Assembly (NCBI GenBank): GCA_026418695.1
Contig: JAOAAU010000148.1
Location: 16,354 to 80,353 of the forward strand
DNA: 64,000 bases
Source of the DNA: Clostridia bacterium
GTDB lineage: Bacteria; Bacillota; Clostridia; Acetivibrionales; JAFADI01
Reading direction: 5' to 3'
Of the stretch, positions 4,255 to 57,876 are shown piece after piece. A model generated the notes under the pieces. The model was not told the origin of the DNA, did not search any database, and saw only the letters and a program-made list of their open reading frames with translations. How positions within the stretch are numbered: position 1 is the first letter of the stretch; each line of letters begins with the position of its first letter. The translations under genes were made by a program, and so were the position numbers.

Positions 4255-4279
4255 AAAGCTGCCGGCTACCGGCAGCTTT
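4255..4279 (-). terminator. Hairpin overlapping the sigK stop codon (probable terminator)
   Basis: 11-bp stem AAAGCTGCCGG / CCGGCAGCTTT. The sigK TAG stop (4268-4266) is the 3-nt loop. Followed on the minus strand by TGTTCAC, so the U-tract is weak. Confidence 0.45.
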
Positions 4280-5069: not shown

Positions 5070-6092
5070 TTATACTACAAGAATGTCACTGATCGCAATA
5101 TCCTTCCTCTCACCAAGCTGGAGTACCTCATTTCTGTCTTCAAGCTTAATCAGCGGCTTTGAAATCTTATCCCTATCCGTAAATATGACTTTTCCGACTT
5201 CTCCATTGGATAGTTCGACCGTACATCCCAAGAGACAATTCAGCATATTATCAATAAACGTTAAAACGATCTCCGTATCCAAACTGTCAATATTCTTCTT
5301 TAAGTGTTCCAGAACCCTGAAAGGATTCACTTTATCCTTGTAGACCCGTTTTGATGTCAGTGCATGATAGACATCCGCTACTGCAACGATTTTCGCGTAG
5401 GAGTGTATTTGATCTCCCTTCAGTCCATAGGGATAGCCGGTACCGTCAATCCTCTCATGATGCTGAAGTATCGCGCATTCCAGATCGCTTCCGTAAGTCC
5501 CGTCTTTCTCAAGGATTTTTTTGCCGAAGAATACATGCTTTTTCATGATTTCAAATTCTCCAGGAGTCAGTTTTCCCGGTTTTCTCAGGATTGGACGTGG
5601 GATCCTGCTTTTTCCGATATCATGAAGGGTCCCTGCCATTGCAATTCTTACAAGTTCGTCATTATCCGTACATCCCATCCATTTAGCCAGCGATAAGGAA
5701 ATCACGCCAATATTGATGGTATGCTGGAAGGTATACTCATCCTGGGATTGAAGTTCCAACAGAAGCCTTGATACGTTTCTCTCACGTTTTACTTCTCTTA
5801 AGATAGGAGATATGGCCGTTTTCACTTCTTCGGGAGTAATATTTTTTCCGTCTTCAGCCTTTTTCATGATGATTTTGCTGTCCTCAACGGCATTGATGTA
5901 AACATTCCTGATATCGATGGTTACAATTCTTTTTCCCATCCGCTGCAGAGCCTCAATGTGCCTGTCACTCAAGATAGTTCCATTTCTGATCACCAAGGCG
6001 CCATTTGTCAGGTAAATATCATTGGCAATGATATCTCCCGGAATCAGGTTGTCGACGTCTACTTTCTTCGTATATAATTCATTGATTGGCAC
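5070..6092 (-). CDS. HD-GYP domain protein (putative c-di-GMP phosphodiesterase), paralog 1
   Basis: Motifs HDIGKSRIP and HHERIDGTGYP. I place the start at GTG 6092 (AGGGAGG, 5 nt, GTG) rather than the longest ORF start at 6170. Confidence 0.85.
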   Translation of the reverse strand: MPINELYTKKVDVDNLIPGDIIANDIYLTNGALVIRNGTILSDRHIEALQRMGKRIVTIDIRNVYINAVEDSKIIMKKAEDGKNITPEEVKTAISPILREVKRERNVSRLLLELQSQDEYTFQHTINIGVISLSLAKWMGCTDNDELVRIAMAGTLHDIGKSRIPRPILRKPGKLTPGEFEIMKKHVFFGKKILEKDGTYGSDLECAILQHHERIDGTGYPYGLKGDQIHSYAKIVAVADVYHALTSKRVYKDKVNPFRVLEHLKKNIDSLDTEIVLTFIDNMLNCLLGCTVELSNGEVGKVIFTDRDKISKPLIKLEDRNEVLQLGERKDIAISDILVV

Positions 6093-6231
6093 TTTATCCT
6101 CCCTTTTCCCTTCATGCTTATAAGCAAAGGAATGGCTTTTACACCAACAAAATGTATGAGATTCTGCCATAATAGAATAAAAACGACAAAATTTTCAAAT
6201 CCCTCTCAAATGAATTATACAACATTTTCCT

Positions 6232-9510: not shown

Positions 9511-9543
9511 AAAATTCCTCCGGAATTCCAGGCTATTGATGTT

Positions 9544-10182
9544 TTATTTCCTATAGCTCAGTGCCACACCATCCCCTATAGGAATGATGCTGGTCTCAAG
9601 CTGCTCATGATTACAGATGCTGTCCAGATAATCCCGCATCCTTCTTACAATGGTTTTTTTTCTTCGGACTACCAGTTCATCGGTTGCGACCATCCCTTTA
9701 TACAGGACGTTGTCTGATATCAGTAATCCTCCCTGGTTGAGCATTCGAAGACACTCAGGCAGGAATTCACTGTATTGCCCCTTGGCGGCATCCAGGAAAA
9801 TCAGATCGTACTTTTTATCAAGACACCGCAGAACTTCAAAAGCATCTCCCGCGATAATGTTTATAGTATCTTCCAAACCGGCTCTTTTTATATTTGCCTT
9901 TGCCCTCTCCACCATCAGTTCGTATCTTTCAATGGTGTCTATCCTGCCTCCCGGCTGAAGAAAGCCTGCCATGAGGATGGTAGAATAACCGATGGCGGTT
10001 CCTACTTCAAGAATTCTTCCGGGTTTTTTCATGTTTCCCAGAACAGTTAACAACCTTCCTACTTCGGGGTGAATAATGGGAACATGGTTTTCCAAAGCAA
10101 ATTGTTCCAATTCTATGAGAAGTCCGTCATTTTTCCTAATCGTCTTTCTGACATATTCATTGATATAATCATAGCAAATCAT
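9544..10182 (-). CDS. SAM-dependent O-methyltransferase, class I family 3 (YrrM/TrmR-like)
   Basis: ILEVGTAIGYSTI SAM-binding loop and DLIFLDAAK. Start placed at internal ATG 10182 (MICYDYINEY). Confidence 0.8.
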   Translation of the reverse strand: MICYDYINEYVRKTIRKNDGLLIELEQFALENHVPIIHPEVGRLLTVLGNMKKPGRILEVGTAIGYSTILMAGFLQPGGRIDTIERYELMVERAKANIKRAGLEDTINIIAGDAFEVLRCLDKKYDLIFLDAAKGQYSEFLPECLRMLNQGGLLISDNVLYKGMVATDELVVRRKKTIVRRMRDYLDSICNHEQLETSIIPIGDGVALSYRK

Positions 10183-10296
10183 ACGAGGATATCTCCGTTT
10201 ATAAAAATTGTGAGGCCTGCGCCCCGACAAAGTATAAGGACACACCTCTGCTTTAGTTTACTAACCTTGCGAGATATGTCCCCAGATTTCATAACT

Positions 10297-11406: not shown

Positions 11407-11486
11407 ATGAAAAATCACCACCGCTGTGTATGGTTAAATTCATGAGAAGGCTTCTTCCCATATCTTAACCAAAACCAAAATATCGC

Positions 11487-13316: not shown

Positions 13317-13667
13317 AAGTATTCTCCTTCTAAAATCTATATCCAATATTTTGATCCAATTTTCTGCAAAACCATACACAAATGGTTCAATATCACTTAG
13401 TGTGAAATTCGCGTTGAGGTTACTTTAATCAAGGTAGAATTTAGTAACCTCGCTCATTATAATTTATCGTTAATTTATTGTCAACTCAAAAACGCCGATA
13501 TAGCTCTTTTTCAACAGTATTTTATGACTTCGACAAAGTTTTAAACATGAGCTTTAACGATAACGAACTATAAAGATAAATTTAAATTCGCTCAGCTCAT
13601 TTGAATGTCAAATTGCTGGCTCATTTGATTTATCTAGTTTTACAGTTCGATATCTCTAAATCAATCG

Positions 13668-16046
13668 CTATTTTAATTCAACCACAGTGACACCGGTTTC
13701 CCCTTCCCCATATTTGCCAAGCCGGAAGGCTTTGACATGGGAGTGGCTTTTTAAGAACTGATGGATTCCATTTCTTAGAACACCGGTCCCTTTCCCATGG
13801 ATCACAGTGACCTCATGCAAGCCTGCAATTGCAGCATCATCCAGGTATTTATCCACGGTTTCGACTGCCGCATCCAGGTTAAAGCCCCGAATATCCACTT
13901 CGGTAGTAATACTCTTTGCTTTGGATACACTAATGGTTCCCATTCCCGATTTGTGGGTTTCATTTTTTTGTTCATCCACAAACCTTAGGTTGGTCACATG
14001 GACATTGATCTTCATAATTCCCGCTTGAATCATTGCTTCCCCGTTTTTATCCGGTGGTGTCAGGACAATCCCTTTTTGATTCAAGTTGACAATCAGGACA
14101 CTGTCGCCCGGCTTCAAATTTTTCGGAGGTTTCACATAACCCTGTTTCGGCATTAAGGATTCTGCCAATGAGTCTTCAATACTATTCACTTTCTTTTTAA
14201 GCTTCATCCTCAACTCTTCTGCAGCTCTGTTCCTCTCCGCTTCCTGCCGCTCATTTTCCAGTTTTCTAAGCTCATCAAGAATCTGTCCGGCCTCGTCCTT
14301 GGCTTCTAAAAGAATCTTTCTTGCCGATTCCTTGGCCTCCCGCAGGATTTTCTCCTTTTGAGCTCCAATTTTGGATTTCTGCTCTTCCAATTCGCGTTTC
14401 AGTTTTTCAATTTCTATCCGGTAGGATTCAACCTTGATTCTTTCCTTCTCTGCCTCACTCCGGTTCTTCTCGATCGTCATCAGGATATCCTCAAACTGAA
14501 TATCCTCATGATTCAGGAAATCTTTTGCCCGTGTGAGGATATCCTCCGGCAGCCCCAGCTTTTTTGATATTGCAAAAGCATTACTCTTTCCGGGAACACC
14601 GATTAAAAGCTTATAGGTTGGCCGCAATGTCTCCACATCAAACTCACAGCAAGCATTTTCTACATGCTGCGTAGAAATTGCATACATTTTCAATTCACTA
14701 TAATGTGTCGTAGCAACCGTAATTGTTCCTGTTTGCTGCAGACATTCCAAAATGGACATCGCAAGAGCCGCCCCTTCCGTTGGATCAGTTCCTGCACCCA
14801 ATTCATCAAAAAGCACCAGGGATTTGTCATCGGCATTTTTGAGAATATGAACAATGTTCTTCATATGAGAAGAAAAAGTACTTAAACTCTGTTCTATGCT
14901 TTGTTCATCCCCGATGTCGGCAAATACTTTGTCAAATATACCGATTTCGGTCCCCTCATTTGCCGGAATGTGCAGCCCTGCTTGAGTCATTAGGGCAAAA
15001 AGTCCAAGGGTTTTTAACGTTACTGTTTTACCGCCTGTATTGGGCCCTGTAATCACTAAAGTATTGAATTGATCTCCGATCCACAAATCAATGGGTACTA
15101 CAACTTTAGGATCCAGAAGCGGGTGTCTTCCTTTTTTAATCACAACACGCTTTGATTCGTTCAGTCTTGGACAAACGCAGCGGTAATCCACACTGAGCTT
15201 CGCCTTGGCAAAGATAAAATCAAGGTTTGCCAGAAGAGATACATTGGATTTCAGGTTGGTCAATATTCCCGCTACATCCGATGTCAGTTCGGCAAGAATC
15301 CGCTCGATCTCAACTTGTTCCTTGACCTTGAGCTGTTTGATATTGTTATTGGCTTCTACAACAGCCATAGGCTCGATAAAAATGGTTGCTCCGCTGGAGG
15401 AAGCATCATGCACCAATCCTGGAATTTCACTCTTGTATTCCTGCTTAACAGGGATTACATATCGCTCTCCCCTCATGGTAACAATACTTTCCTGCATGTA
15501 TTTCTGGAACTTGGAAGACCGTACAATGTCATTCAGCTTATCCTTGATGGAGCCTTGAAGATCCCGCATCTGTCTTCGGATATTTCCCAGTGTCGTACTT
15601 GCACTGTCGGAAATCTCATCTTCCCCCACAATGGACATATTAATTTTGTCCTCGATTCTCTTGTTGGTCTCCAGGCAGTTAATCAGTTCCGCAACTACAT
15701 TCTGAGCCCCTGTCGCAATATTCTCACTGGCATATCCCTTCAGGTTTCTACATGCTCGAAGCGTATCTGAGATTCTTAACAGTTCTCCCGGATTTAATAC
15801 TGCGCCTACTTCCACTCGCTTCAAGGCAGGTCTGATGTCATGGATGCCCCCCATCGGCGGACTTCCCCTGCGGACGATAAAGCTTACGCCATCACTGGTT
15901 TCTTTCAACAGTCGATCCACTTTGGAGAACTCTGTCACCGGAGTAAGTGCTTCAGCAATCTCCCGTCCCAAATCCGATACCGTAAGACTCATCAGCTTTT
16001 TTATCATCTTGTCATATTCAAGAATTCTAAGTGTCTTTTCATTCAT
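13668..16046 (-). CDS. mutS2: Endonuclease MutS2 (MutS domain V ATPase plus C-terminal Smr)
   Basis: 792 aa. Walker A GPNTGGKTVTLKT, a coiled-coil middle region, and the Smr tail HGKGTGVLR. Confidence 0.95.
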   Translation of the reverse strand: MNEKTLRILEYDKMIKKLMSLTVSDLGREIAEALTPVTEFSKVDRLLKETSDGVSFIVRRGSPPMGGIHDIRPALKRVEVGAVLNPGELLRISDTLRACRNLKGYASENIATGAQNVVAELINCLETNKRIEDKINMSIVGEDEISDSASTTLGNIRRQMRDLQGSIKDKLNDIVRSSKFQKYMQESIVTMRGERYVIPVKQEYKSEIPGLVHDASSSGATIFIEPMAVVEANNNIKQLKVKEQVEIERILAELTSDVAGILTNLKSNVSLLANLDFIFAKAKLSVDYRCVCPRLNESKRVVIKKGRHPLLDPKVVVPIDLWIGDQFNTLVITGPNTGGKTVTLKTLGLFALMTQAGLHIPANEGTEIGIFDKVFADIGDEQSIEQSLSTFSSHMKNIVHILKNADDKSLVLFDELGAGTDPTEGAALAMSILECLQQTGTITVATTHYSELKMYAISTQHVENACCEFDVETLRPTYKLLIGVPGKSNAFAISKKLGLPEDILTRAKDFLNHEDIQFEDILMTIEKNRSEAEKERIKVESYRIEIEKLKRELEEQKSKIGAQKEKILREAKESARKILLEAKDEAGQILDELRKLENERQEAERNRAAEELRMKLKKKVNSIEDSLAESLMPKQGYVKPPKNLKPGDSVLIVNLNQKGIVLTPPDKNGEAMIQAGIMKINVHVTNLRFVDEQKNETHKSGMGTISVSKAKSITTEVDIRGFNLDAAVETVDKYLDDAAIAGLHEVTVIHGKGTGVLRNGIHQFLKSHSHVKAFRLGKYGEGETGVTVVELK

Positions 16047-18187: not shown

Positions 18188-19639
18188 TTACCCCAGGTTA
18201 ATTCCCCACAAGACCAGAACCTTGTTGAGCAAGTATCCTGCAGCAAAAGCAAAGGGGAAGATAAATGCGCACATGGCCAAAGCAGTTTTCCATCCTCGTT
18301 CCTTGATCATCATCGTAAATTGAGCAACACAAGGAACAAAAAGAGTTAATGTCGCAGCAGCAACTACCAGCTGCCTTCCGTTGAGAACCCCTGAACTCTG
18401 CATATCAAACAGCCCTGCTGCACCAAAGTCACGTCTGAAGAAACCAAAGAGGAAGATCTCAGCTGTTTTATCCGGCAGGCCAATCATATTCACTACTGGA
18501 ACCGTATACCGGACCAGTACTTCAAAGAGACCTGTAATATTTCCAACCCAGATCAGTACACTGGCAAGGATAAACAGCGGAAGAACTTCTTTAAAGTACC
18601 AGTACATCCGCACGTAGGTTTTCTTTAACACATTGGAGAGTTTCGGCATCCTTAATGGCGGAAGTTCCATATAAAATCCCGCCTTTTCTCCCGGAATGAC
18701 CTTGGAAGTCAGATATCCGATCAGCATGAATATCAATACCATAAATACCAGCCATACCGCCATTGCCATCGGTTTTCCCGAAAGCAGTGCCAGGATTACG
18801 CCCAACTGAGCTGAGCATGGAATTGCCAGTGCTAGCAGGAAGGTGGATATAACCCTTTCCCGTTTTGTTTCAAGGGTTCTGCTGACCATAGTCGCCATGG
18901 TGTCACAGCCAAAACCAAGGGTCATGGGAATGACAGCCCTGCCGTTGAGTCCGATCTTTTTGAACACCCTGTCCATCAACATCGATATCCTCGGCAGATA
19001 ACCACTGTCTTCAATGATTGAAAACATCAGGAAGAAACAGCCTACTACCGGTAAAACAATGGCAATCGCATATTTAATTCCCAGTGTAATGATACCATAG
19101 TCATTGACAAAGAGATCGCTGACAACTTTCCATGGTATCAGACCATTCACAAATTGGTTAATATAAGGATTAATCATTTCATCAAAGATATTGGTTTCAA
19201 TGAAATCCACCATCGTCCCTGCCCCAAAGACACCGACGAACTGATAAAAACCATAGTAGAGAACCAATAAAAGCAGGGGAATTCCCGTGATCGGATTGAT
19301 TGTCAGTTTATTAACAATCTTCGCCAGCTTGCTGCCGGAATTTTTATCTACCGTCATCACCTTTTGAAGTATCTTTTTGCTTTCTTCCTGCTGCGTCCTT
19401 GAGATCTGGTATAATACTGATTCCGAGGTATTCTTTTTAAACTCATTGATCATTGCTCTGATTTCATTATAATTCGAACCGTCATTCTGTTTTACAAGCT
19501 CCCAGATCTCTTCATCCTCCTGCAGCAGCATGGTTGCTACAGACCGCTTGGAAAAAGCATAGTCGGAGTTTAAATGGGAAACCAGCCTGAATATCAAGTT
19601 TTCTATGTCTTTATCGTAGTTTAGGGTATTATGCTGCAT
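18188..19639 (-). CDS. feoB: FeoB C-terminal part (helical S-domain plus nucleoside-recognition/Gate membrane domains)
   Basis: Polytopic. Continues the FeoB architecture straight after the G domain (LNYDKDIENLIFRL...). ATG 19639 lies 10 nt after GAGGAG and overlaps the upstream stop. Confidence 0.85.
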   Translation of the reverse strand: MQHNTLNYDKDIENLIFRLVSHLNSDYAFSKRSVATMLLQEDEEIWELVKQNDGSNYNEIRAMINEFKKNTSESVLYQISRTQQEESKKILQKVMTVDKNSGSKLAKIVNKLTINPITGIPLLLLVLYYGFYQFVGVFGAGTMVDFIETNIFDEMINPYINQFVNGLIPWKVVSDLFVNDYGIITLGIKYAIAIVLPVVGCFFLMFSIIEDSGYLPRISMLMDRVFKKIGLNGRAVIPMTLGFGCDTMATMVSRTLETKRERVISTFLLALAIPCSAQLGVILALLSGKPMAMAVWLVFMVLIFMLIGYLTSKVIPGEKAGFYMELPPLRMPKLSNVLKKTYVRMYWYFKEVLPLFILASVLIWVGNITGLFEVLVRYTVPVVNMIGLPDKTAEIFLFGFFRRDFGAAGLFDMQSSGVLNGRQLVVAAATLTLFVPCVAQFTMMIKERGWKTALAMCAFIFPFAFAAGYLLNKVLVLWGINLG

Positions 19640-20216
19640 CTTTGATCTGCTCCTCAATGGTTTTTCTAATTTCGTTTAACCCCTTGTTTAAGGCGGCACT
19701 TGCCTCAAGAACGGGAATTCCAAGTATCTTCTGTAATTCCCTGCAATTGATTTCAATTCCTAATGCTTTCGCCTCATCCATGATATTCAGAACCAGTACC
19801 ACCTGGAAGCCCGCTTCTATCAACTGCAAAGTCAATGGTAGCATTCTGTTGATATTCTTTGCATCAATGATATGTAAAACCAGGTCCGGCCTTTCATTGA
19901 TGAGCAGATTCCTTGTCACTCTTTCCTCTTCCGTGATGGGAATCATTGAGTACATCCCCGGGGTATCGATCACTTCCAGTTTACTATTTCCATAAGTATA
20001 CCGGCCTCTGGATACCTCAACCGTAGTCCCCGGATAATTCGATACCGTGACGTAGGCCCCGGTCAAACTGTTAAATATCACACTTTTCCCTACATTGGGG
20101 TTGCCGATTAAGGCGATCTTTTTCTGTGCATTCTGTTCAACCTTGTGCGCATCTTTTCTATTAGTAAGATTTCTAATCCTAGAAATCATAGAGACTTTTT
20201 GATTGCAGCATTCCAT
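19629..20216 (-). CDS. feoB: FeoB N-terminal GTPase domain, encoded as a separate ORF
   Basis: GNPNVGKSVIFNSLTG (G1), DTPG (G3), NIMD (G4). ATG 20216 follows GAAGGAG with a 7-nt spacer. Confidence 0.85.
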   Translation of the reverse strand: MECCNQKVSMISRIRNLTNRKDAHKVEQNAQKKIALIGNPNVGKSVIFNSLTGAYVTVSNYPGTTVEVSRGRYTYGNSKLEVIDTPGMYSMIPITEEERVTRNLLINERPDLVLHIIDAKNINRMLPLTLQLIEAGFQVVLVLNIMDEAKALGIEINCRELQKILGIPVLEASAALNKGLNEIRKTIEEQIKDAA

Positions 20217-33291: not shown

Positions 33292-34356
33292 CTATAACTC
33301 ACAGGAATCCATAATAAATACATTTAACTTCTTTGACAGATCAACATCATAATATGTTGGAAGGCGCTGGCTGTTTTTATCAAAAACCACTCTGACCACC
33401 GGTCTGGTCGGCAGGTTTTTATCGGCCCTGATAACCAGTCCGCGCTCTCGTGTATTTAATACAACCCCGGTTCCAATGGGATAAACTGCAATATATTTGA
33501 TAAATTCCTGAACAATTTCCTTATCAAAATGGTGCGACCCCAGAGAAGTGATATATTCAATCACTTCATGCGGGCGCAATTTCCGCCGGTAAACCCTGTC
33601 GGAGGTTAGTGCATCGTACACATCCGCAATGGCCACAATTCTGGCACATTGATGAATATTATCCCCCCGGAGCTGCAGAGGGTATCCGCTTCCGTCAAAC
33701 CTCTCATGATGCCCGAAAGCAATAAACGCAGATACCATATTGATATTGGAATGATCTTTTAAGATCTCGTATCCGTAAACGGTATGCTTCTTAATTTCTT
33801 CAAACTCTTCTACGGTCAGCTGAGACGGTTTCTTGAGAATTTCTTCAGGGATGCGAAGTTTACCGATATCATGCAGCAGCGCGCCGACCCCAAGGTCCTT
33901 AAGCCGATTTCCCTTTAACCCGAGTCCGATTCCCGTAATTAAAGACAAAATGCAAACATTCACAGAGTGTTCAAACGTATAATCATCTACCGACTTGATA
34001 TTCGCCAAATTCACCAGAATATCGTCATTGGCCAACAGTTCATCGATAATTTTGTTGATGAGTTCCTTGACTTTGTCGCTGCTTAAGGTATCCGCAAAGT
34101 TTTTTTGTTCCATGAGATTCTTTACAATTTGTTTGGCTTCGAGGCGGGTGTTTTCAGAGACTACGTCTACAACTTCCACATCCGATGAAATCTCATCTTC
34201 AATAAAAATCTCCGTAATTCCATTCAACTTTAACCGATCTATAAAGTTGTCCTTGAGTTCTATTCCTGAAGCGAGCAGAATTCTTCCATCGGAAGTAAAG
34301 ATTGTTTTTGCCAGCTTCATTCCAGGAACTAGACTTTCCACCTGCATCCTGCGCAT
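33292..34356 (-). CDS. HD-GYP domain protein (putative c-di-GMP phosphodiesterase), paralog 2
   Basis: HDIGKLRIP and HHERFDGSGYP. Start placed at ATG 34356 (GGAGGA, 5 nt, ATG; MRRMQVESLVPG). Confidence 0.85.
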   Translation of the reverse strand: MRRMQVESLVPGMKLAKTIFTSDGRILLASGIELKDNFIDRLKLNGITEIFIEDEISSDVEVVDVVSENTRLEAKQIVKNLMEQKNFADTLSSDKVKELINKIIDELLANDDILVNLANIKSVDDYTFEHSVNVCILSLITGIGLGLKGNRLKDLGVGALLHDIGKLRIPEEILKKPSQLTVEEFEEIKKHTVYGYEILKDHSNINMVSAFIAFGHHERFDGSGYPLQLRGDNIHQCARIVAIADVYDALTSDRVYRRKLRPHEVIEYITSLGSHHFDKEIVQEFIKYIAVYPIGTGVVLNTRERGLVIRADKNLPTRPVVRVVFDKNSQRLPTYYDVDLSKKLNVFIMDSCEL

Positions 34357-34574
34357 TACTATCCTCCAAAGCCTTATCTTCTGTAAAAATCCGTCTTTCA
34401 TCATCATGGATTCATTACATATTCGACATTATTTATGCAAATCCTTCCGCACAGGGAAATATTATCCGAAATTTTTGTTAAATTTTATAATAAACAGTAC
34501 CATGGTCCTATCTGGTTATGGCCGTTCATAGTACTAAATGCCTAATAAGTATAAAAATCGACACCAGGAAATAC

Positions 34575-50626: not shown

Positions 50627-52273
50627 TTAAAACTCATTATCTTCTTCCAACGGTATTACCTCCTGTGGTGACAGGCTGTTCTTCGTTTGACTGACCGGCT
50701 TAAAAGAGGCCTGCTTCAAACTATGGATATTCCTATCTAAAGAACTGGAATTTGCGAAGCTATTCCTATAGCTGCTCATACTTTTTTTTGAAGGAGTGTT
50801 TCTCTTATAACGATCTAACAACTCTTTTTCGGCTTCTGCACCTTTTACCATATTGTTGAGTTCAAAGACAACATGTTCCAGTTCTTCTGCCTGCGACTGC
50901 AATTCCTGAGCAGCAGCTGCGCTTTCTTCGGCAGTAGCGGCATTGTGCTGTGTCACCTTTTCCATTTGAGACACAGCTTCGTTGATCTGTTGGATCCCTC
51001 TCGATTGTTCTTCACTGGCAGCCGTAATTTCACCGACAATACTGTTTACATTTTGAGATTTCAAGTTGATTTCCTCCAGGGACTTTAGCACCTCTGCACT
51101 TACATCGACACCCTGTCTCGAAAGTTCGATATTCCTTTCAATGATTTCAGCCGTGTCCTTCGCAGCTTGCGCACTTCTCTGGGCCAGATTTCTAACCTCT
51201 TCGGCAACAACCGCGAACCCCATGCCTGCTTCCCCAGCTCTTGCAGCTTCCACAGCAGCGTTTAGTGCAAGAATATTGGTCTGAAAGGCGATGTCGTCGA
51301 TCACCTTGATAATCTTTGCGATCTTATCACTTGATTTTTTCAGCTCCTCCATGGATACAATCATGTTATTCATCTTGGAGAAACCTGCGCCTGCAGCGCC
51401 CTTTGCCTGTTCTGAAAGGTCTGATGCCTGTCGGGTGTTTTCATTATTCTGATTGATCATGGAAGCTGTCTCATTCATAGTTGCTGAAGTTTCCTCAATG
51501 GATGCAGCCTGCTCATTGCTTCCCTCCGCAAGCTGCTGACTTGCTGCTGCCAGCTGTGCCGCAGCTGAAGCCACCATCTTTGATGATTGGGACAGTCTTT
51601 CGGTCAAACCGGTTAATAAGCCATTGATGTTTCTGGAAACACCCCATCCTAGAAGCGAGGCAAACAGGATCGCAATCACCGAAAGGACGATCATGATAAT
51701 AATGGTGTTACTGGCCTTTTTCCCAAATTGATCTCTCTTCTCTTCTCCTGCCTTTTCCATGCTGGTGAAAATCTCATCAATCAGCCTGTTTACTTCAATG
51801 GCAGAACTTCTCCATGCGCCATTGTACATGCTCTGGAATGCAGCGTCCCGCTTATCGTCATCAATAGTTTTTATGAGTTTGTCACTTTCTCCGTAGTATA
51901 CTTCCATTTGTCTTTTTAAATCCTTCAGTACACCTTCTACCGGCTGATTTTTGACAGCCACTTCAAAACGTTTCAGCCGCTCCGCAATGTTTTTCTTACA
52001 TTCTTCAATGGCTTTTTTATTGTTTTCGGTCAGTGTCGGATCATCGTTGATATAAATATCTCTTACATAGTTTCTGATTCTTTGGTACTCTTTTGAGACA
52101 AAGCCCATGTCTGCCAAAGCCAATCCATAATTATCGTATAACCCCTTGTACCCTCCGTCAATCGTGCTCAGGTTGATAGTTCCCGTGATTCCTATAATGC
52201 CTGCAATCAAAGAAACCAAAACAAAACTTACAAGAAGCTTAACACTTACTTTTTGTTCAAAAAACCATTTCAT
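50627..52273 (-). CDS. Methyl-accepting chemotaxis protein (4HB-type sensor, HAMP, MA domain, long C-terminal tail)
   Basis: 548 aa. Highly conserved signalling hairpin [40 protein letters not shown]. Confidence 0.92.
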
Positions 52274-52302
52274 AACGGGCAGCCCCCTCCACTTTGAATT
52301 TT

Positions 52303-52782
52303 TTACCCTTCAATTCTACTCATTGCCTTTATTTCATTGGTTGTCAGCACCTTATCTGTATCCAACAACATAATCACCTTGTCTTTTACCTTCCCGATCC
52401 CTGTGAGGATCTCCTGTTCAATTCCATCCCCATAGGTTGGCGGCGCTTCAATATTCTCCTCCGCGATAGCCAGCACTTCACACACACTGTCTACAACCAG
52501 CCCGTTAATACGTTTCCCGTTTTCACAATCCATTTCAACAACAATGATACAGGTTCTATCACTATACACTGACCCGGGTATGGAAAACTTGAGACGAAGG
52601 TCTATTACGGGAATAATCTTGCCGCGAAGGTTGATCACACCCTTCACAAAATCTGGCATTCGCGGCACATGGGTTATGGGCATCATGCCAATAATCTCTT
52701 TGACCTTCAAAATGTGGATCCCATAGGTTTCATTTTCCAAAACAAAGGAAAGATATTTATTCTGTTGAATTGCCATCATCAT
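52303..52782 (-). CDS. cheW: Chemotaxis coupling protein CheW
   Basis: [36 protein letters not shown]. The start lies among three consecutive ATGs after GGGGG. Confidence 0.9.
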
Positions 52783-52908
52783 CACCCCCAATAGTGAAAG
52801 TAGTATATAAAGCACATCGCAGCGCATTATACCGTTCGGCTTGGCTCTGGTTTAGTAATCCCCCCTGGGGTCATCGTCTTTTTTATCCATGGATACTTTT
52901 AATCCGGA

Positions 52909-53967
<1,059 letters not shown>

Positions 53968-53970
53968 TTA

Positions 53971-56499
53971 TCATAGTCCGGCTTTTTTAAACATGTCTTC
54001 CACATCCAGGATCAGCGAAACCACACCATCCCCCAGAATAGAGGCGCCTGATGCAAACTCAATGCCACCGAATTCGCTCCCAAGGGGCTTTGAAACGATT
54101 TCCTGCCTTGCTACGATTTTATCTACCGGAAATGCCAGCAGTTTTTGTTCCAGCTCTACAATAATCAGTTCGCACCGGTCTTTCCCTGCCCGGTTAATCT
54201 CCTCACCAAAGAATTTTTCCGGTTGCAATACAGGAATAACATGTTCTCTGAGACGAATTGCCTTGGCTTTTCCCTGCATGCTAACCCAATGACTTTCATC
54301 CGCGATAAAAAACTCCTTGATAAACAAAGTGGGGATGATATATCTTCCTTCGCAAACCTCAACAATGGTCCCGTTTACCACAGCCAGATTCATCGGGATT
54401 CTTAAAGTGAAAGTGCATCCATTTCCGGGCCTGTTTTGGACTTCTACCCTGCCGCCCACTTTTTTTATTTCCTCTTCTACCACGTTCATCCCCACGCCTC
54501 TGCCGGAAATGCTGTTGATTTTCTCTTGTGTAGAGAATCCCGGCAAAAATATAAACCGGATGATTTCATCTTCACTATAGTCTTCGTGGGCTTTTGCCAT
54601 TCCTAAGTCCACCGCCTTTTTTAGAATCCGGTGGATATCCATTCCCTTCCCATCATCAGAAACCTCAATATACACATTCCCTCGCTTACTGTATGCTTTG
54701 ATAATAATCTGGCCATCAGGCTTTTTCTCCTTTTCCATCCTTTCTCGGACACCCTCAATTCCGTGGGAAACTGCATTCCTTACTAGATGCATCAACGGGT
54801 CAAAGATCTTTTCTGCCGCACTCCGGTCAATCTCTGTGTCGTCCCCCTCAATGAAAACTACGACCCTTTTGTCAAGCTCCGTTGCCGCGTCTCTTGCAAT
54901 TCGTGTCAGCCTATGTAAAGTAGACTTGATTTCCACCATTCTTAGTGACATGGACAGAGATTGAACCCCTTTAATAATCTTTGCAGTGCGGGACAGAATT
55001 GTTTGGGTTCCGATATCGTATATTCCTGTCTCCGAAGTCCGCTGCTCCAATTGTGAGTTTAAGATCAGCAGTTCTGAAAGCATATCCATCAGATTATCAA
55101 CTTTTCCCACAGGCACACGTACGAATCCGCTTTCTGTTTTTGCCGCAGAACTCTCCTTCTTCTCCGGAATACGCTCCTGCTCCTTCAATGCCTGCAGCAT
55201 ATCGTAAGCGCTTACCATATTCTCTTTAACTGCTACTTGTCCGAATTTCAAATCCTGATGATCAGACTTCTGTTTATGTAAAATCTCTTCAATATCTCGA
55301 TCACTAATTAAGCCTTTCTTTCGAAGAATATCTCCGATCCTCGGACTTGGATTTTCACACCTGGATTTTATGATTGACAAATGCTCGTCCAATTTTTCCT
55401 GGAACTCTTTACTTTCGAGCATTCCAGATGTTTTCAGACTGATCTCCAGATCCTTGCATACAAAAGCCATGATTTCCATGTCTTCTCCGGTCAATCGGTG
55501 CGTACCTTTCATCGCCTCATTTAATGCTTTAACCAGTTCTGATGCCGATGTTTTTATGAGTTTGCACTCTTCCGGAAGCTCGGCTGATGCAATCCTCTTA
55601 AAGTGATCAATCAGAGTTTCAAGGATCCTATGATCTGCCTCTCTATTATCCGTACCCAGGATATGAACACCTACATCTCCGATAATTTTCAGAATTTCCT
55701 TTTCTGTTTCAACCCGTCCCAGTTCCGCTCTGACCTCTTCCAGATTAATCTGTTGGAAGGTTACGTCGGATACTTCACATAGATTTTTGATATCTTCCAC
55801 GATCGGCTCAATATCCTTTTCTGTCAGCAGCAACATCTGCATTTCATTTCCTTCAAAATTAAACGTACCATTTTTAAATGCTTCTTCAGAAGGACGTTCC
55901 GGTTTGGAATTGAAAATGGAGGCATGTCCGTCCACTGCTTCAAAAACCAACCAGGCTCTGACTGCTTTCATCACGCAGTCAGGACTGAAGGTAACCTTCA
56001 TCCTATATACATTAAATCCTCTGCGATAATTTTCCTCGATAATTTTCAGCAATTCGAGATTTTCACTATAGAGGGTGCCTTTAACCTCGTCCTCATCTCG
56101 CTTTTCTTTTTGAGAGGAGATATTTCCGGCTTTTACCTGTTCCAGTTTCTTTTGTAAAATATCGATGTTCAGTCCATGATCTGATTCCGTACTCGAGATA
56201 ATTTCAATACAATCCTCCAGAAAATCATGGCAGGCAAACAGAACCCGCATGATGTCCCCCGACAGTTCACGGCTGCCGCTTCGGACCTCCTGCAGGATAT
56301 CTTCCATGGTATGCATCACTTTCTCAATTTTCATGAAATTCATGGCTGCCGAATTGCCCTTGATGGTATGGGCCACCCTAAAAATGCTATTAACCACTTC
56401 TGCATCTTGCTGAGAATTCTGAATCTTAATTAAAGCATCATTTAGGATCAAAAGATTGTCTTTCATGTCTTCCATATATCCGGATAATATTTCATTCAT
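53971..56499 (-). CDS. cheA: Chemotaxis histidine kinase CheA with an extra insertion of about 200 aa
   Basis: 842 aa. Hpt (RVAHTIKGNSA), a P2-like segment, the extra region at aa ~256-450, then dimerisation, HATPase_c (DPLMHLVRNAVSHGIE, GRGVGMNVV) and a CheW-like P5 domain. Confidence 0.92.
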   Translation of the reverse strand: MNEILSGYMEDMKDNLLILNDALIKIQNSQQDAEVVNSIFRVAHTIKGNSAAMNFMKIEKVMHTMEDILQEVRSGSRELSGDIMRVLFACHDFLEDCIEIISSTESDHGLNIDILQKKLEQVKAGNISSQKEKRDEDEVKGTLYSENLELLKIIEENYRRGFNVYRMKVTFSPDCVMKAVRAWLVFEAVDGHASIFNSKPERPSEEAFKNGTFNFEGNEMQMLLLTEKDIEPIVEDIKNLCEVSDVTFQQINLEEVRAELGRVETEKEILKIIGDVGVHILGTDNREADHRILETLIDHFKRIASAELPEECKLIKTSASELVKALNEAMKGTHRLTGEDMEIMAFVCKDLEISLKTSGMLESKEFQEKLDEHLSIIKSRCENPSPRIGDILRKKGLISDRDIEEILHKQKSDHQDLKFGQVAVKENMVSAYDMLQALKEQERIPEKKESSAAKTESGFVRVPVGKVDNLMDMLSELLILNSQLEQRTSETGIYDIGTQTILSRTAKIIKGVQSLSMSLRMVEIKSTLHRLTRIARDAATELDKRVVVFIEGDDTEIDRSAAEKIFDPLMHLVRNAVSHGIEGVRERMEKEKKPDGQIIIKAYSKRGNVYIEVSDDGKGMDIHRILKKAVDLGMAKAHEDYSEDEIIRFIFLPGFSTQEKINSISGRGVGMNVVEEEIKKVGGRVEVQNRPGNGCTFTLRIPMNLAVVNGTIVEVCEGRYIIPTLFIKEFFIADESHWVSMQGKAKAIRLREHVIPVLQPEKFFGEEINRAGKDRCELIIVELEQKLLAFPVDKIVARQEIVSKPLGSEFGGIEFASGASILGDGVVSLILDVEDMFKKAGL

Positions 56500-56521
56500 C
56501 CCGTCTCATCTCCTGTAGCAC

Positions 56522-57337
56522 TTAAATTGGCTTTTTCATATAGATTGAAGGCTTATAATATTCGAATTCATGTTTTTTGCTGATAAGGCTCTCAGAATGT
56601 CCGATCAGCAGCAGTCCTCCAGGCACCATCGCCCTGTGAAACCTGCTCACCAATTCTTGCTGGGTATTTTGATCAAAATAAATCATCACGTTACGGCAGA
56701 AAATGATATCAAAGCCATGCTTGAATTTATATTCATTCATTAAGTTGAAAACCCTGTATTTGATCATGTTGAGAATCTCTTCTTTGACTTTGTAGCCTTC
56801 ACTTGTCTTAGAAAAGTACTTTAGCAGAAAGTTTTTGGGAATCCCCTGGCATTCGTTTTGGGAATAAACCCCTGAGGCAGCTTTGTTCAGCACCTTGGTA
56901 CTGATATCCGTAGCCAGAATCCTGATATCGAATTCATCCGAAAGCAATTCCTTAAACACCATCGCAATCGTAACCGGTTCCTGCCCGGATGAGCATCCCG
57001 CACTCCAAATGCGTAATTCCTTGTTTGTGTTGATTCTTGGGTTTTTTTTCAGGATGAATGGAAAATCATTCTTCAAATACTCGAAATGGTTATTTTCTCT
57101 AAAAAACTCCGTAGTATTTGTTGTCATAATATTGATGAACTCTTGTACTTCAACTTTATCTTGCTGTTCCCCGATCAATTGCAGATGCTTTTTAGCATCT
57201 GCCACCTGTCTCCGCATGAGCAACTTGAGTATTTTAGCCTGGACCAGGTGCTCTTTATTCCCATCAAGGTAAATCCCTGTCTTATTCCTTAAAATATCTA
57301 CATATTTCTTGCATACTTGATGATTTAATCCTTCCAC
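56522..57337 (-). CDS. cheR: Chemotaxis protein methyltransferase CheR
   Basis: TEFFRE and IWSAGCSSGQEP motifs. Start moved to GTG 57337 (GGAGGG, 5 nt, GTG), which gives a canonical-length N-terminus. Confidence 0.9.
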   Translation of the reverse strand: MEGLNHQVCKKYVDILRNKTGIYLDGNKEHLVQAKILKLLMRRQVADAKKHLQLIGEQQDKVEVQEFINIMTTNTTEFFRENNHFEYLKNDFPFILKKNPRINTNKELRIWSAGCSSGQEPVTIAMVFKELLSDEFDIRILATDISTKVLNKAASGVYSQNECQGIPKNFLLKYFSKTSEGYKVKEEILNMIKYRVFNLMNEYKFKHGFDIIFCRNVMIYFDQNTQQELVSRFHRAMVPGGLLLIGHSESLISKKHEFEYYKPSIYMKKPI

Positions 57338-57876
57338 AGTATCCCTCCGTATGCTGTAATTCATATGCTTGCAAATCAACCCTGAAACCATCTTTTGTTG
57401 GCCGGCTATGAAATTTTCTTATGTTGTGATAATCCTTCTGATACGATATGTCTGAATCTTACTTTAAGGGAACGGTATAGTTTGGGTATTATAAGAGCAA
57501 TACCCAAAATTCAAGATAAATACACAGTTAATTTCAAGACTTTTCTAAAATGCTGAATCAAGATATAAATGAATAAGATTTTGAGATCAAGTAATAATTA
57601 TTTCACTAAAATACATAGATATTTTCTCTTCTATCCTGCGGTTGATAAAAACACTCTTCAAAATAATTATCGGATAATTCGAACTGAAAAGTAAGGAAAA
57701 TTGATTGTTATATATAAGTAATTTTTTTGTTAAGACCAGGTTAAAAATATGTAAACCAAAATTAATTTTATTATATACTGATATTTTCTAAAATTCAACA
57801 TTTTTCATCACCCATCATCATTTTTATCCATAAGAGCAATTGCTTTATACAGTTAAATCAAAAATTTTTATGCGAC

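What the first reader, a model, noticed from the sequence alone, without database searches (positions are those of the whole stretch)
55177..55341. CheA carries a tandem MshEN/T2SSE_N-like c-di-GMP-binding motif pair
This CheA is 842 aa. Roughly 200 residues (aa ~256-450) sit between the P2-like segment and the dimerisation domain, and the canonical P1-P5 layout does not account for them. Within that stretch, aa 387-410 read RIGDILRKKGLISDRDIEEILHKQ. The published 24-residue MshEN motif is RLGxx(L/V/I)(L/V/I)xxG(L/V/I)(L/V/I)xxxx(L/V/I)xxx(L/V/I)xxQ. The CheA segment matches it at R1, G3, L6, G10, L11, I12, I17, L21 and Q24, with I for L at position 2. Only position 7 deviates. Seven residues later, a degenerate second copy KFGQVAVKENMVSAYDMLQALKEQ (aa 418-441) keeps G3, V7, M11, V12, M17, L21 and Q24. 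Two such motifs joined by a short spacer is the architecture of the high-affinity c-di-GMP receptor domain of MshE/PilB-type ATPases. I do not know of a described CheA with this module. It would place c-di-GMP sensing directly on the kinase of a chemosensory pathway. The same window also encodes two HD-GYP phosphodiesterase paralogs.
Basis: partly seen in the sequence, partly recalled or inferred. Interest (0 to 1): 0.7.

Follow-up and report, generated by a model that had tools for sequence, protein, structure and literature searches.

The report
CheA kinase with embedded c-di-GMP-receptor module

Summary
CheA (window 53971-56499, minus strand, 842 aa) reads RIGDILRKKGLISDRDIEEILHKQ - KSDHQDL - KFGQVAVKENMVSAYDMLQALKEQ at aa 387-441.

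This is not chance. NCBIfam's MshE-related c-di-GMP motif model covers it end to end, above its curated cutoff. All 19 relatives tested hit the same model. A family profile finds only MshE/PilB/PilF proteins in the PDB. AlphaFold predicts the four-helix MshEN_N topology with high confidence.

All twelve ligand-contacting positions of V. cholerae MshE are kept or conservatively replaced, and none of the changes that inactivated XpsE is present. The module is as conserved as the kinase core.

The other ~130 unexplained residues (aa 253-382) are a His-less duplicate of the P1/HPt domain. The layout is therefore P1-P2-pseudoP1-MshEN_N-P3-P4-P5.

The module is not new. Wang et al. 2016 listed HPT-P2-MshEN_N-P3-P4-P5 for Aeromonas CheA, without experiments. 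I found no later test, and a 2023 survey of CheA architectures missed it.

New here are a clostridial family, the coupled pseudo-P1, and the fixed position 5-21 aa before P3 in 84 of 91 CheA-type cluster representatives.

c-di-GMP binding and any effect on the kinase remain inferred.

The parts
53971..56499 (-). cheA, 842 aa: P1-P2-pseudoP1-MshEN_N-P3-P4-P5
   Evidence: ORF. The AF2 full-length model has mean pLDDT 82.6.
56122..56499 (-). P1 / HPt domain (aa 1-126) with phospho-acceptor His44 in FRVAHTIKGNS
   Evidence: Pfam Hpt hit at E = 1.9e-12. H44 is invariant across the 60 aligned CheAs.
55753..56010 (-). P2 CheY-binding domain (aa 164-249)
   Evidence: Pfam P2 hit at E = 5.9e-15.
55354..55743 (-). 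Pseudo-P1: a five-helix HPt-like bundle (aa 253-382) without a conserved phospho-acceptor His
   Evidence: AF2 helices 253-281, 286-305, 310-331, 338-356 and 364-382. The best Foldseek hits are CheA P1 domains: 1i5n (target TM 0.74-0.77, prob 1.0), 2lp4, 3kyi and 8c5v, with weak E-values of 0.15-1.5. hhalign of family P1 against this region gives prob 96.5% and E = 8e-10. H44 aligns to K302, and no His is conserved there. No Pfam hit.
55177..55341 (-). MshEN_N-type module (aa 387-441): two 24-residue motifs plus a 7-residue spacer; predicted c-di-GMP binding site
   Evidence: NCBIfam NF053729.1 covers the full profile above its cutoff. PDB profile hits are to PilF, PilB and MshE only. AF2 predicts four helices (388-394, 400-412, 419-425, 431-443) at pLDDT ~87-96.
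55270..55341 (-). Motif 1 (aa 387-410), RIGDILRKKGLISDRDIEEILHKQ
   Evidence: R387, I388, G389, I403, L407 and Q410 correspond to VcMshE R9, L10, G11, L25, L29 and Q32. In the family, G3 is kept in 49/49, L6 in 48/49 and Q24 in 44/49.
55177..55248 (-). Motif 2 (aa 418-441), KFGQVAVKENMVSAYDMLQALKEQ
   Evidence: K418, F419, G420, M434, L438 and Q441 correspond to VcMshE R38, L39, G40, L54, L58 and Q61. In the family, K/R1 is kept in 49/49, F2 in 47, G3 in 48, Q4 in 47, A6 in 48, V7 in 45 and E9 in 45. The kinase-adjacent subtype signature is K-F-G-x-[IV]-A-V-K-E.
55126..55176 (-). Short flexible linker (aa 442-458) between MshEN_N and P3
   Evidence: AF2 pLDDT is below 50 for aa 445-459. The linker length is constrained: 5-21 aa in 84 of 91 CheA-type representatives.
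53983..55125 (-). Kinase core: P3 (aa 459-520), P4 (aa 568-703), P5 (aa 712-839)
   Evidence: Pfam H-kinase_dim, HATPase_c and CheW hits.
56522..57391 (-). cheR, first gene of the cluster
   Evidence: Pfam CheR hit at E = 4.2e-64.
52909..53958 (-). cheB (REC plus methylesterase); its start overlaps the end of cheA
   Evidence: Pfam hits.
52303..52827 (-). cheW
   Evidence: Pfam hit.
50627..52273 (-). MCP with a 4HB sensor domain, last gene of the cluster
   Evidence: Pfam 4HB_MCP_1 and MCPsignal hits.
5070..6170 (-). HD-GYP phosphodiesterase paralog 1; shows c-di-GMP turnover in this genome but is not physically linked to the che cluster
   Evidence: Pfam HD_5 hit. HDIGK at 183, HHE at 237, GYP at 245.
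33292..34407 (-). HD-GYP phosphodiesterase paralog 2
   Evidence: Pfam HD_5 hit. HDIGK at 179, HHE at 233, GYP at 241. It is 37% identical to the HD-GYP encoded next to the MshEN-CheA of Herbivorax.

Best explanation
Residues 387-441 of this CheA are a genuine MshEN_N domain. This is the four-helix, two-motif c-di-GMP receptor module of MshE/PilB/PilF-type ATPases. It is inserted, together with a His-less duplicate of the P1 domain (aa 253-382), between P2 and the dimerisation domain P3.

The most likely function is that one c-di-GMP molecule binds per module. Each guanine would be held by the backbone amides at G389-D390 or G420-Q421, by a hydrophobic triad (I388/M434/L438 and F419/I403/L407), and by R387 or K418. 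Q410 and Q441 would contact the ribose-phosphate.

Binding would order or reposition the pseudoP1-MshEN_N unit, which is tethered about 15 residues from P3. That would change how efficiently the true P1 (His44) reaches the P4 ATP site, or how P1-P passes phosphate to CheY and CheB. Cellular c-di-GMP level would then set the gain or bias of this cheR-cheA-cheB-cheW-mcp pathway directly at the kinase.

Shown: homology, conservation of the binding residues, predicted fold, fixed position next to P3, and presence of c-di-GMP-degrading enzymes in the genome.

Inferred: actual binding, its affinity, and the existence and sign of any effect on kinase activity.
For: 1. The curated NCBIfam model NF053729.1 matches aa 387-441 over its full length, above cutoff, at E = 2.4e-10. 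It also matches 19 of 19 family members.

2. The family profile hits only MshEN proteins in the PDB. These are Thermus PilF 6f8l (1.8e-8), Geobacter PilB 5tsg/6olj (2.9e-6, aligned across both motifs), 5zfr, V. cholerae MshE 5htl (3.5e-5), and the PilF c-di-GMP-binding domains 8pfa and 8pdk.

3. The residue alignment to crystallised VcMshE, read against the contact map of Wang et al. 2016, shows all 12 contact positions kept or conservatively substituted. None of the XpsE loss-of-binding changes (G11V, I19R, L29R, R38G, G40L, L54H, L58C, Q61V) occurs here.

4. Isolated VcMshEN_N (residues 1-62) binds c-di-GMP with K_D 0.35 uM, so the missing MshEN_C subdomain is not needed. The 7-residue spacer, and Asn in place of the turn Gly (position 10), both occur in Geobacter PilB.

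5. AF2 predicts a short-long-short-long four-helix unit with pLDDT ~87-96.

6. Purifying selection is evident. The module is 45-62% identical across the family. That matches P1 and P3-P5 (50-69%), and far exceeds P2 (~30%) and pseudo-P1 (~15-20%). The two Gly3 residues that hydrogen-bond to guanine are kept in 49/49 and 48/49 members.

7. Position is constrained. In 91 of 91 CheA-core representatives among the best 150 hits of an exhaustive search, an MshEN_N lies just upstream of P3, at 5-21 aa in 84 of them.

8. There is a c-di-GMP context. The window encodes two complete HD-GYP enzymes. In Herbivorax an HD-GYP gene sits in the same cluster as the orthologous MshEN-CheA.

9. Wang et al. 2016 independently classified the equivalent Aeromonas CheA segment as MshEN_N.
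Against: - No binding or activity data exist for any CheA of this type in the literature I could search.
- Pfam T2SSE_N does not hit.
- Foldseek on the insert model returned no MshE/PilB match in its top 50, because the larger P1-like bundle dominated. The fold match for the 55-residue part therefore rests on helix topology and sequence profiles only.
- Motif 1 has Arg at core position 7. Motif 2 has K/F/M in place of R/L/L and Asn in place of the turn Gly.
- In VcMshE, single Leu-to-Ala changes lowered affinity more than 10-fold, so affinity could be weak here.
- Part of the family (the Oscillospiraceae-type group) has lost Q24 of motif 2 (kept in only 26 of 49). That group also has Ala at positions 17 and 21 of motif 1, and 14 of 49 members have Thr at position 2. 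Binding may therefore not be universal in the family.
- The MshEN_N-P3 linker is predicted to be disordered, which argues against rigid mechanical coupling.
- No diguanylate cyclase gene lies in the window.
- The HD-GYP genes are 20 and 48 kb away from the che cluster and are not linked to it.
Confidence: 0.62

Rival explanations
1. The segment is a true MshEN_N homologue that no longer binds c-di-GMP, or binds it only weakly. It would serve as a structural or protein-interaction element, as in XpsE/GspE, whose MshEN-like N domain lost nucleotide binding. For example, it could position the pseudo-P1 or dock a partner protein at the CheA dimer.
For: Non-binding MshEN homologues exist; Wang et al. 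note that XpsE and 'a number of MshEN domains' have lost binding.

The kinase-adjacent copies form their own subtype. Several near-invariant residues are not needed for ligand contact: Q4, A6, V7, K8 and E9 of motif 2, and Phe rather than Leu at position 2, with no Gly10. This suggests a CheA-specific interaction surface.

Part of the family has lost Q24 of motif 2 and has weakened hydrophobic positions in motif 1.
Against: In this particular protein every contact position is kept or conservatively replaced, and none of the XpsE-type inactivating changes is present. The two Gly residues whose only known role is the backbone hydrogen bond to guanine are essentially invariant. The curated binding-motif model scores above its cutoff.
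Confidence: 0.27
2. The module binds a different cyclic dinucleotide (for example 3'3'-cGAMP) or another nucleotide as its physiological ligand.
For: VcMshEN_N binds cGAMP weakly, with K_D 0.33 mM. Motif 2 departs from the canonical consensus.
Against: The Gly-X backbone-amide geometry that selects guanine O6/N7 is kept in both motifs. cGAMP affinity in the reference protein is about 1000-fold weaker than for c-di-GMP. The genome encodes HD-GYP enzymes, which are typical of c-di-GMP signalling. No cGAMP synthase was seen in the window.
Confidence: 0.06
3. Chance resemblance: an amphipathic P2-P3 linker that happens to fit a loose 24-residue pattern.
For: The published motif consists mostly of hydrophobic positions. 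Neither motif of this CheA passes Wang et al.'s relaxed regular expression exactly. Pfam gives no hit.
Against: There is a full-length curated profile hit at E = 2.4e-10. All 19 relatives tested hit it too. PDB hits are exclusively MshEN proteins. Identity across relatives that share only 40-50% overall is 45-62%. The fold is predicted with confidence. The ~680-aa sister CheAs lack the segment altogether.
Confidence: 0.01

Closest known systems
MshEN_N-containing CheA catalogued by Wang et al. 2016 (Nat Commun 7:12481; Suppl. Table 4 and Suppl. Fig. [quoted passage not shown]
   Same: The module has the same type and position, between P2 and P3, ending about 12 residues before the '(F/Y)VRV' start of P3. 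It carries the same prediction that c-di-GMP feeds into chemotaxis, and it is equally untested.
   Different: - The published distribution was 'Actinobacteria, Proteobacteria'. This protein belongs to a Clostridia/Bacillota family (Christensenellaceae, Oscillospiraceae, Herbivorax, Pseudobacteroides, Halanaerobiales).
- An extra His-less P1-like domain precedes the module and co-occurs with it (52 both, 58 neither, 10 discordant).
- Motif 1 here keeps the Arg that the Aeromonas sequence lacks.
- Whether the two lineages share one insertion event was not resolved.
N-terminal domain of Vibrio cholerae MshE (PDB 5HTL), the reference MshEN c-di-GMP receptor
   Same: Two 24-residue motifs in tandem, forming a four-helix MshEN_N. 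All six contact residues per motif are kept or conservatively replaced.
   Different: - There is no MshEN_C subdomain and no ATPase.
- The spacer is 7 residues rather than 5.
- Motif 2 has K/F/M in place of R/L/L, and N in place of the turn Gly.
- The module is internal rather than N-terminal.
- The output domain is a histidine kinase rather than a secretion or pilus ATPase.
PilB of Geobacter metallireducens (5TSG, 6OLJ), 5ZFR PilB, and PilF of Thermus thermophilus (6F8L, 8PFA, 8PDK)
   Same: These are the best profile matches. Geobacter PilB shares the 7-residue spacer and has Asn at the turn position.
   Different: They are hexameric pilus-assembly ATPases, and PilF carries three such domains. 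They have no link to chemosensory kinases.
Other routes from c-di-GMP to chemotaxis or histidine kinases: PilZ-domain chemoreceptors (Cbp1, PMC6454048; Tlp1, own knowledge), MapZ-CheR1 (cited), PlzC-CheX in V. cholerae (PMC12799141), ShkA (PMC6969517, title and abstract seen), CckA (own knowledge)
   Same: The logic is the same: the second messenger modulates a phosphorelay or chemotaxis output. ShkA offers a precedent for c-di-GMP releasing an inhibitory pseudo-domain of a histidine kinase.
   Different: Those systems act on receptors, on CheR, on the CheY-P phosphatase, or on non-chemotaxis kinases. They use PilZ, pseudo-receiver or CA-domain sites. None uses MshEN_N and none acts on CheA itself.
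His-less HPt domains in multi-HPt CheAs (P. aeruginosa ChpA, R. sphaeroides CheA3; Berry et al. 2023, PMC10782961)
   Same: An extra P1-like bundle lacking the phospho-acceptor His, with function unknown.
   Different: More than 90% of multi-HPt CheAs carry a C-terminal REC, and 93% are of the Tfp or ACF class. This CheA has no REC, retains P2, and pairs its pseudo-P1 with MshEN_N.

Membership tests
MshEN_N (c-di-GMP-binding four-helix subdomain of MshE/PilB-type ATPases; NCBIfam NF053729) | Profile match to a curated MshE-related c-di-GMP motif model, above its cutoff and over its full length | tested here: met
   NF053729.1 covers aa 387-441 and profile positions 1-53 of 53. It scores 40.1-43.2 bits against a cutoff of 38, at E = 2.4e-10 to 2.4e-11. 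All 19 relatives tested hit it.
MshEN_N | Two 24-residue motifs in tandem joined by a short spacer | tested here: met
   Motif 1 is aa 387-410, the spacer is 7 aa, and motif 2 is aa 418-441. The spacer is 5 aa in VcMshE and 7 aa in Geobacter PilB. In the family the spacer is 7 aa in 33 members, 5 in 10, 6 in 5 and 4 in 1.
MshEN_N | Six ligand-contacting residues per motif (R1, L2, G3, L17, L21, Q24) | tested here: met
   Motif 1 has R, I, G, I, L, Q and motif 2 has K, F, G, M, L, Q, so every position is identical or conservatively replaced. Neither motif passes Wang's relaxed regular expression exactly, because of R at position 7 of motif 1 and N at position 10 of motif 2. These are core and turn positions, not contact positions.
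MshEN_N | Absence of the substitutions that abolish binding in XpsE (G11V, I19R, L29R, R38G, G40L, L54H, L58C, Q61V) | tested here: met
   The equivalent positions are G389, L397, L407, K418, G420, M434, L438 and Q441.
MshEN_N | Four-helix bundle fold (alpha1 short or broken, alpha2, alpha3, alpha4) | tested here: inconclusive
   AF2 predicts helices 388-394, 400-412, 419-425 and 431-443 with high pLDDT, which is consistent. However, Foldseek on the 197-residue model was dominated by the P1-like bundle and listed no MshE/PilB hit.
MshEN / T2SSE_N (Pfam PF05157, full N-terminal domain of T2SS/T4P ATPases) | Pfam T2SSE_N profile hit, including the alpha/beta MshEN_C subdomain | tested here: not met
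   No hit at E <= 10 for the protein or its fragments. None of 19 relatives hit at E <= 0.1. Only the N subdomain is present. Wang et al. list such proteins separately as 'MshEN_N only, no T2SSE_N1 domain'.
MshEN_N | Measured, specific c-di-GMP binding | not testable with these tools
   This needs ITC, DRaCALA or DSF on purified protein.
CheA (P1-P5 chemotaxis histidine kinase) | Hpt with phospho-acceptor His, P3 dimerisation domain, HATPase_c and CheW-like domain (with P2 as an auxiliary domain) | tested here: met
   All five Pfam domains score above their cutoffs. H44 is invariant in 60 homologues. The gene lies in a cheR-cheA-cheB-cheW-mcp cluster.
MshEN_N-containing CheA (architecture in Wang et al. 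2016, Suppl. Table 4) | Domain order HPT - P2 - MshEN_N - P3 - P4 - P5 | tested here: met
   The order is the same, with one extra pseudo-P1 between P2 and MshEN_N.
HPt / P1 domain (for aa 253-382) | Helical-bundle fold homologous to CheA P1 | tested here: met
   Foldseek gives target TM 0.74-0.77 and prob 1.0 to 1i5n, though E-values are weak at 0.15-0.8. hhalign gives prob 96.5%, E = 8e-10, over 109 columns.
HPt / P1 domain (for aa 253-382) | Conserved phospho-acceptor histidine (the E. coli His48 equivalent) | tested here: not met
   H44 of P1 aligns to K302, and the family consensus has no conserved His at that position. This is therefore a pseudo-HPt, not a functional phosphotransfer domain.

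The most novel reading that the evidence does not exclude
The pseudo-P1 and MshEN_N form one c-di-GMP-switched unit that gates the real P1's access to the P4 active site. One possibility is a decoy HPt that is docked or released when the ligand orders the adjacent four-helix bundle. That would make CheA itself a direct second-messenger receptor.

This HPt-MshEN_N pairing would be a widespread signalling supermodule that has gone unrecognised. It occurs in at least 91 distinct 50%-identity clusters of CheA-type kinases, always a few residues before P3. It also occurs in kinase-less proteins built of repeated [(MshEN_N)2-HPt] units and in stand-alone P1-P2-pseudoP1-MshEN_N proteins.
Probability: 0.25. 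Interest if true: 0.7.

Novelty: new member of a known kind. Interest (0 to 1): 0.45.

Why it matters
c-di-GMP governs the switch between motile and sessile life. Known links to chemotaxis act on receptors, on CheR, on the CheY-P phosphatase or on the motor, always through PilZ-type adaptors. A receptor domain built into CheA would put the second messenger at the central kinase and allow it to rescale the whole pathway's output at once.

The prediction has sat in a supplementary table since 2016. A dedicated 2023 survey of CheA architectures missed it, and I found no test of it.

This window adds several things:
- A well-conserved clostridial family in which every binding residue is intact.
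- Evidence of strong selection on the module.
- A fixed position next to P3.
- A coupled His-less P1 duplicate that suggests a concrete gating mechanism.
- Clear point mutants to test it (G389L, G420I).

For the organism itself this is an ordinary chemotaxis operon with an accessory input domain. The value lies in making an old prediction directly testable, not in a new kind of system.

Tried and rejected
1. I do not take this as refutation, because only the N subdomain is present and NCBIfam's dedicated 53-position model does hit.

2. Word-indexed homology search with the insert alone (aa 250-460): nothing found, not even the protein itself. This is a limitation of the tool. The full-length query and the exhaustive profile search worked.

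3. Foldseek on the insert model to recover 5HTL: the hit list was taken over by the P1-like bundle.

4. Search with the published Aeromonas CheA MshEN_N segment, to map proteobacterial carriers: only one partial A. hydrophila fragment came back. The relationship between the proteobacterial and clostridial insertions is unresolved.

5. Looking up the window's own contig: not on record. The closest relative is a Clostridia MAG, GCA_026414765.1.

6. The idea that the sigma factor next to HD-GYP paralog 1 is the flagellar SigD: rejected, it is SigK.

7. A search for a diguanylate cyclase (GGDEF) or a cheY in the window: none found.

8. A literature search for experimental c-di-GMP/CheA binding: none found in five searches. 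The library covers only open-access papers and bioRxiv.

9. Chance resemblance: rejected (see rival explanations).


Full report
**1. The observation**

The ORF at window 53971-56499 (minus strand) encodes an 842-aa CheA. The minus-strand translation of 55177-55341 is RIGDILRKKGLISDRDIEEILHKQKSDHQDLKFGQVAVKENMVSAYDMLQALKEQ, which is aa 387-441.

Pfam finds Hpt (3-97), P2 (164-249), H-kinase_dim (459-520), HATPase_c (568-703) and CheW (712-839). It finds nothing significant between residues 250 and 458.

**2. Is it more than chance?**

Yes. Four lines of evidence agree.

- NCBIfam holds a dedicated 53-position model, NF053729.1, 'cyclic di-GMP-binding domain-containing protein, MshE-related'. 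It aligns to aa 387-441 over its whole length. It scores 40.1 bits in the whole protein and 43.0-43.2 bits in fragments, against a curated cutoff of 38, with E = 2.4e-10 to 2.4e-11.
- The weaker secondary hits fall on the same residues. They are to EpsG (TIGR03029) and NfrB (NF008411). Wang et al. 2016 list both as MshEN_N- or MshEN-containing proteins.
- A profile built from 29 homologous CheA segments (A2) hits only MshEN proteins among 177,635 PDB sequences. These are Thermus PilF 6f8l (1.8e-8), Geobacter PilB 5tsg/6olj (2.9e-6, aligned across both motifs), PilB 5zfr (1.6e-5), V. cholerae MshE 5htl (3.5e-5), and the isolated 'c-di-GMP binding domain' entries of PilF.
- All 19 relatives tested hit NF053729.1 individually.

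Pfam's T2SSE_N does not hit the protein or any relative. My reading is that the Pfam model spans the full N-terminal domain, whereas only the four-helix MshEN_N subdomain is present here. Wang et al. list such cases separately as 'MshEN_N only, no T2SSE_N1 domain'.

**3. Are the binding residues intact?**

Wang et al. 2016 (PMC5013675) define six contact residues per motif.

- R1 stacks on guanine.
- L2, L17 and L21 form hydrophobic triads across the two motifs.
- G3 and the next residue give backbone hydrogen bonds to O6 and N7.
- Q24 binds the ribose and phosphate.
- Positions 6, 7, 11 and 12 form the bundle core, and G10 makes the turn.

The phmmer alignment to 5HTL gives this mapping:

| CheA | VcMshE | CheA | VcMshE |
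|---|---|---|---|
| R387 | R9 | K418 | R38 |
| I388 | L10 | F419 | L39 |
| G389 | G11 | G420 | G40 |
| D390 | D12 | Q421 | D41 |
| I403 | L25 | M434 | L54 |
| L407 | L29 | L438 | L58 |
| Q410 | Q32 | Q441 | Q61 |

Every contact residue is identical or conservatively replaced. None of the eight substitutions blamed for loss of binding in XpsE is present.

The deviations are Arg at core position 7 of motif 1, Asn at the turn position of motif 2, and a 7-residue spacer instead of 5. The last two also occur in Geobacter PilB.

The isolated VcMshEN_N (residues 1-62) binds c-di-GMP at K_D 0.35 uM, so the missing C subdomain is dispensable.

**4. Predicted structure, and the rest of the gap**

AF2 on the full protein used a 60-sequence alignment and gave mean pLDDT 82.6. 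AF2 on aa 250-446 used 19 sequences and gave pLDDT 89.2 and pTM 0.72. The two models agree.

- Residues 388-394, 400-412, 419-425 and 431-443 form a short-long-short-long four-helix unit, which is the MshEN_N topology.
- Residues 445-459 are disordered.
- Residues 253-382 form a five-helix bundle.

Foldseek matches that bundle best to CheA P1 domains. The hits are 1i5n (target TM 0.74-0.77, prob 1.0), 2lp4, 3kyi and 8c5v, although E-values are weak at 0.15-1.5. hhalign of the family's P1 profile against this region gives 96.5% probability and E = 8e-10 over 109 columns. The phospho-acceptor His44 aligns to Lys302, and no His is conserved there.

The layout is therefore P1-P2-pseudoP1-MshEN_N-P3-P4-P5.

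Foldseek did not list MshE or PilB for the small module, because the larger bundle dominated the ranking. I could not cut the model to search the module alone. The fold-level test for MshEN_N is therefore consistent but formally inconclusive.

**5. Family and distribution**

A full-length search found about 55 CheAs of 817-985 aa that align end to end at 38-74% identity. The nearest is from a Clostridia MAG, GCA_026414765.1. The same search found many ~680-aa Clostridium CheAs that are just as close in P1 and P3-P5 but lack the insert.

The motif pair is present at the same place in 49 of the 60 aligned sequences. Among all 120 homologues, pseudo-P1 and MshEN_N travel together: 52 have both, 58 have neither, and 10 are discordant, mostly truncated sequences.

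Identity to the query differs sharply by region:

| Region | Identity to query |
|---|---|
| MshEN_N | 45-62% |
| P1 and P3-P5 | 50-69% |
| P2 | ~30% |
| pseudo-P1 | ~15-20% |

The module is therefore under strong constraint.

Per-position counts show which residues are kept. G3 is kept in 49/49 (motif 1) and 48/49 (motif 2). L6 of motif 1 is kept in 48/49 and Q24 of motif 1 in 44/49. Motif 2 is almost invariant as K-F-G-Q-[VI]-A-V-K-E.

One subgroup, the Oscillospiraceae type, has lost Q24 of motif 2. It also has Ala at positions 17 and 21 of motif 1, and 14 of 49 members have Thr at position 2. Binding may be weaker or lost in those members, but not in this protein.

A scan of species-representative genomes found the module in 21 species. 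Most are Bacillota: Christensenellaceae, Oscillospiraceae, Herbivorax sp., Pseudobacteroides cellulosolvens and Halanaerobiales. A few are Synergistaceae or Gastranaerophilales MAGs.

An exhaustive HMMER search of 1.84 billion cluster representatives with the insert profile gave 851 hits at E <= 1e-3 and 73 at E <= 1e-10. Of the best 150, 91 carry a CheA core. All 91 have an MshEN_N just upstream of P3, at 5-21 residues in 84 of them. Their N-terminal arrangements vary and include P1-MshEN_N-core, P1-P2-pseudoP1-MshEN_N-core, and versions with several HPt or MshEN_N copies.

The kinase-adjacent copies form a recognisable subtype, with Phe at position 2 and no Gly10 in motif 2.

**6. Genomic context**

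The gene sits in a five-gene cluster, cheR-cheA-cheB-cheW-mcp, where the MCP has a 4HB sensor. The same cluster occurs in the nearest relative.

No cheY or cheD lies in or next to the cluster here. Relatives often have cheD between cheA and cheB. Some have a cheY that is 58-61% identical to B. subtilis CheY at the cluster start, which points to a flagellar-type pathway.

The window encodes two complete HD-GYP phosphodiesterases, at 5070-6170 and 33292-34407. It contains no GGDEF protein. These genes are 20 and 48 kb away, so they show only that the organism uses c-di-GMP.

The stronger link is in Herbivorax. There the orthologous MshEN-CheA is followed in the same direction by a hybrid kinase, an HD-GYP gene and a second hybrid kinase.

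**7. What is already known**

Wang et al. [quoted passage not shown] Supplementary Fig. 3c aligns its residues 260-342. They report no experiment on it.

Five full-text searches found no later biochemical or genetic test of c-di-GMP binding to a CheA.

The 2023 survey of CheA architectures by Berry, Andrianova and Zhulin never mentions c-di-GMP, MshE or T2SSE. It does describe His-less HPt domains of unknown function in multi-HPt CheAs.

Known c-di-GMP inputs to chemotaxis act elsewhere. Examples are PilZ-domain receptors, MapZ-CheR1 and PlzC-CheX.

**8. Mechanism**

The best-supported reading is that this is a functional c-di-GMP receptor module on CheA. I put homology at about 0.95 probability, binding at about 0.65, and a regulatory effect on the kinase at about 0.5.

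Three observations point to an effect on P1 delivery to P4, or on phosphotransfer, rather than on receptor coupling through P5. These are the tight linkage to a pseudo-P1, the short and length-constrained tether to P3, and a conserved non-contact surface on helix 3 (K8 and E9 of motif 2).

A gating-by-decoy model is attractive but speculative. ShkA provides a precedent, since c-di-GMP there frees an inhibitory pseudo-domain of a histidine kinase (title and abstract seen). The sign of any effect cannot be inferred.

The main rival, at about 0.27, is a homologous module that has become a ligand-independent structural or interaction element.

**9. Verdict**

The finding is real and correctly interpreted, but the class was already catalogued. 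This is a new, clostridial, pseudo-P1-coupled member of the predicted MshEN_N-CheA kind.

Its value is as a clean, testable case for direct second-messenger control of a chemotaxis kinase. I score interest at 0.45.

Noticed in passing
window 55354-55743 (-), CheA aa 253-382: A His-less duplicate of the P1/HPt domain sits between P2 and MshEN_N. It has no Pfam hit. It co-occurs with MshEN_N in 52 of 62 insert-bearing homologues, yet it evolves fast (~15-20% identity).
   Followed up: yes
L002 6831-8417 (Pseudobacteroides cellulosolvens, = P0090) and L006 6831-8405 (Bacillota MAG): Stand-alone 528-aa proteins with the layout P1-P2-pseudoP1-MshEN_N end right after the module. No P3-P5 lies within 8 kb. 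This is a kinase-less version, conserved in at least two genomes.
   Followed up: partly
P0128, P0129, P0130, P0133, P0136, P0138, P0139, P0148 (representative search): Proteins of 780-1180 aa are built from repeated [(MshEN_N)2-HPt] units with no detectable CheA core. This suggests HPt and MshEN_N form a recurrent paired module.
   Followed up: partly
L016 (Herbivorax sp. ANBcel31) 6675-15831: The MshEN-CheA is followed on the same strand by three genes: a PAS-GAF hybrid kinase with two REC domains and an Hpt, an HD-GYP phosphodiesterase (37% identical to window 33292-34407), and a second GAF-PAS hybrid kinase. A second, short CheA lies upstream.
   Followed up: partly
window 5070-6170 (-) and 33292-34407 (-): There are two HD-GYP paralogs, 33% identical to each other, with complete HDIGK/HHE/DG[TS]GYP signatures. 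Each has an uncharacterised N-terminal region of ~130 aa. The first lies next to sigK (4266-4982). No GGDEF gene is present in the window.
   Followed up: partly
window 50627-57391 (-): The che cluster lacks cheY and cheD. Relatives carry cheD between cheA and cheB, and some have a B. subtilis-like cheY at the cluster start. The response regulator of this pathway must be encoded elsewhere.
   Followed up: partly
window 18188-20216 (-): feoB appears split into a G-domain ORF (19629-20216, 195 aa) and a membrane ORF (18188-19657, 489 aa) that overlap by 29 nt. This could be a frameshift, a sequencing error, or a natural split.
   Followed up: no
kinase-adjacent MshEN_N copies in 91 representatives: These copies form a distinct subtype. 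Motif 2 reads K-F-G-x-[IV]-A-V-K-E-K-K, with Phe at position 2 and no turn Gly. MshEN_N copies in other contexts keep the canonical K-L-G-E-I-L-V-x-x-G. The extra invariant residues hint at a CheA-specific contact surface.
   Followed up: partly
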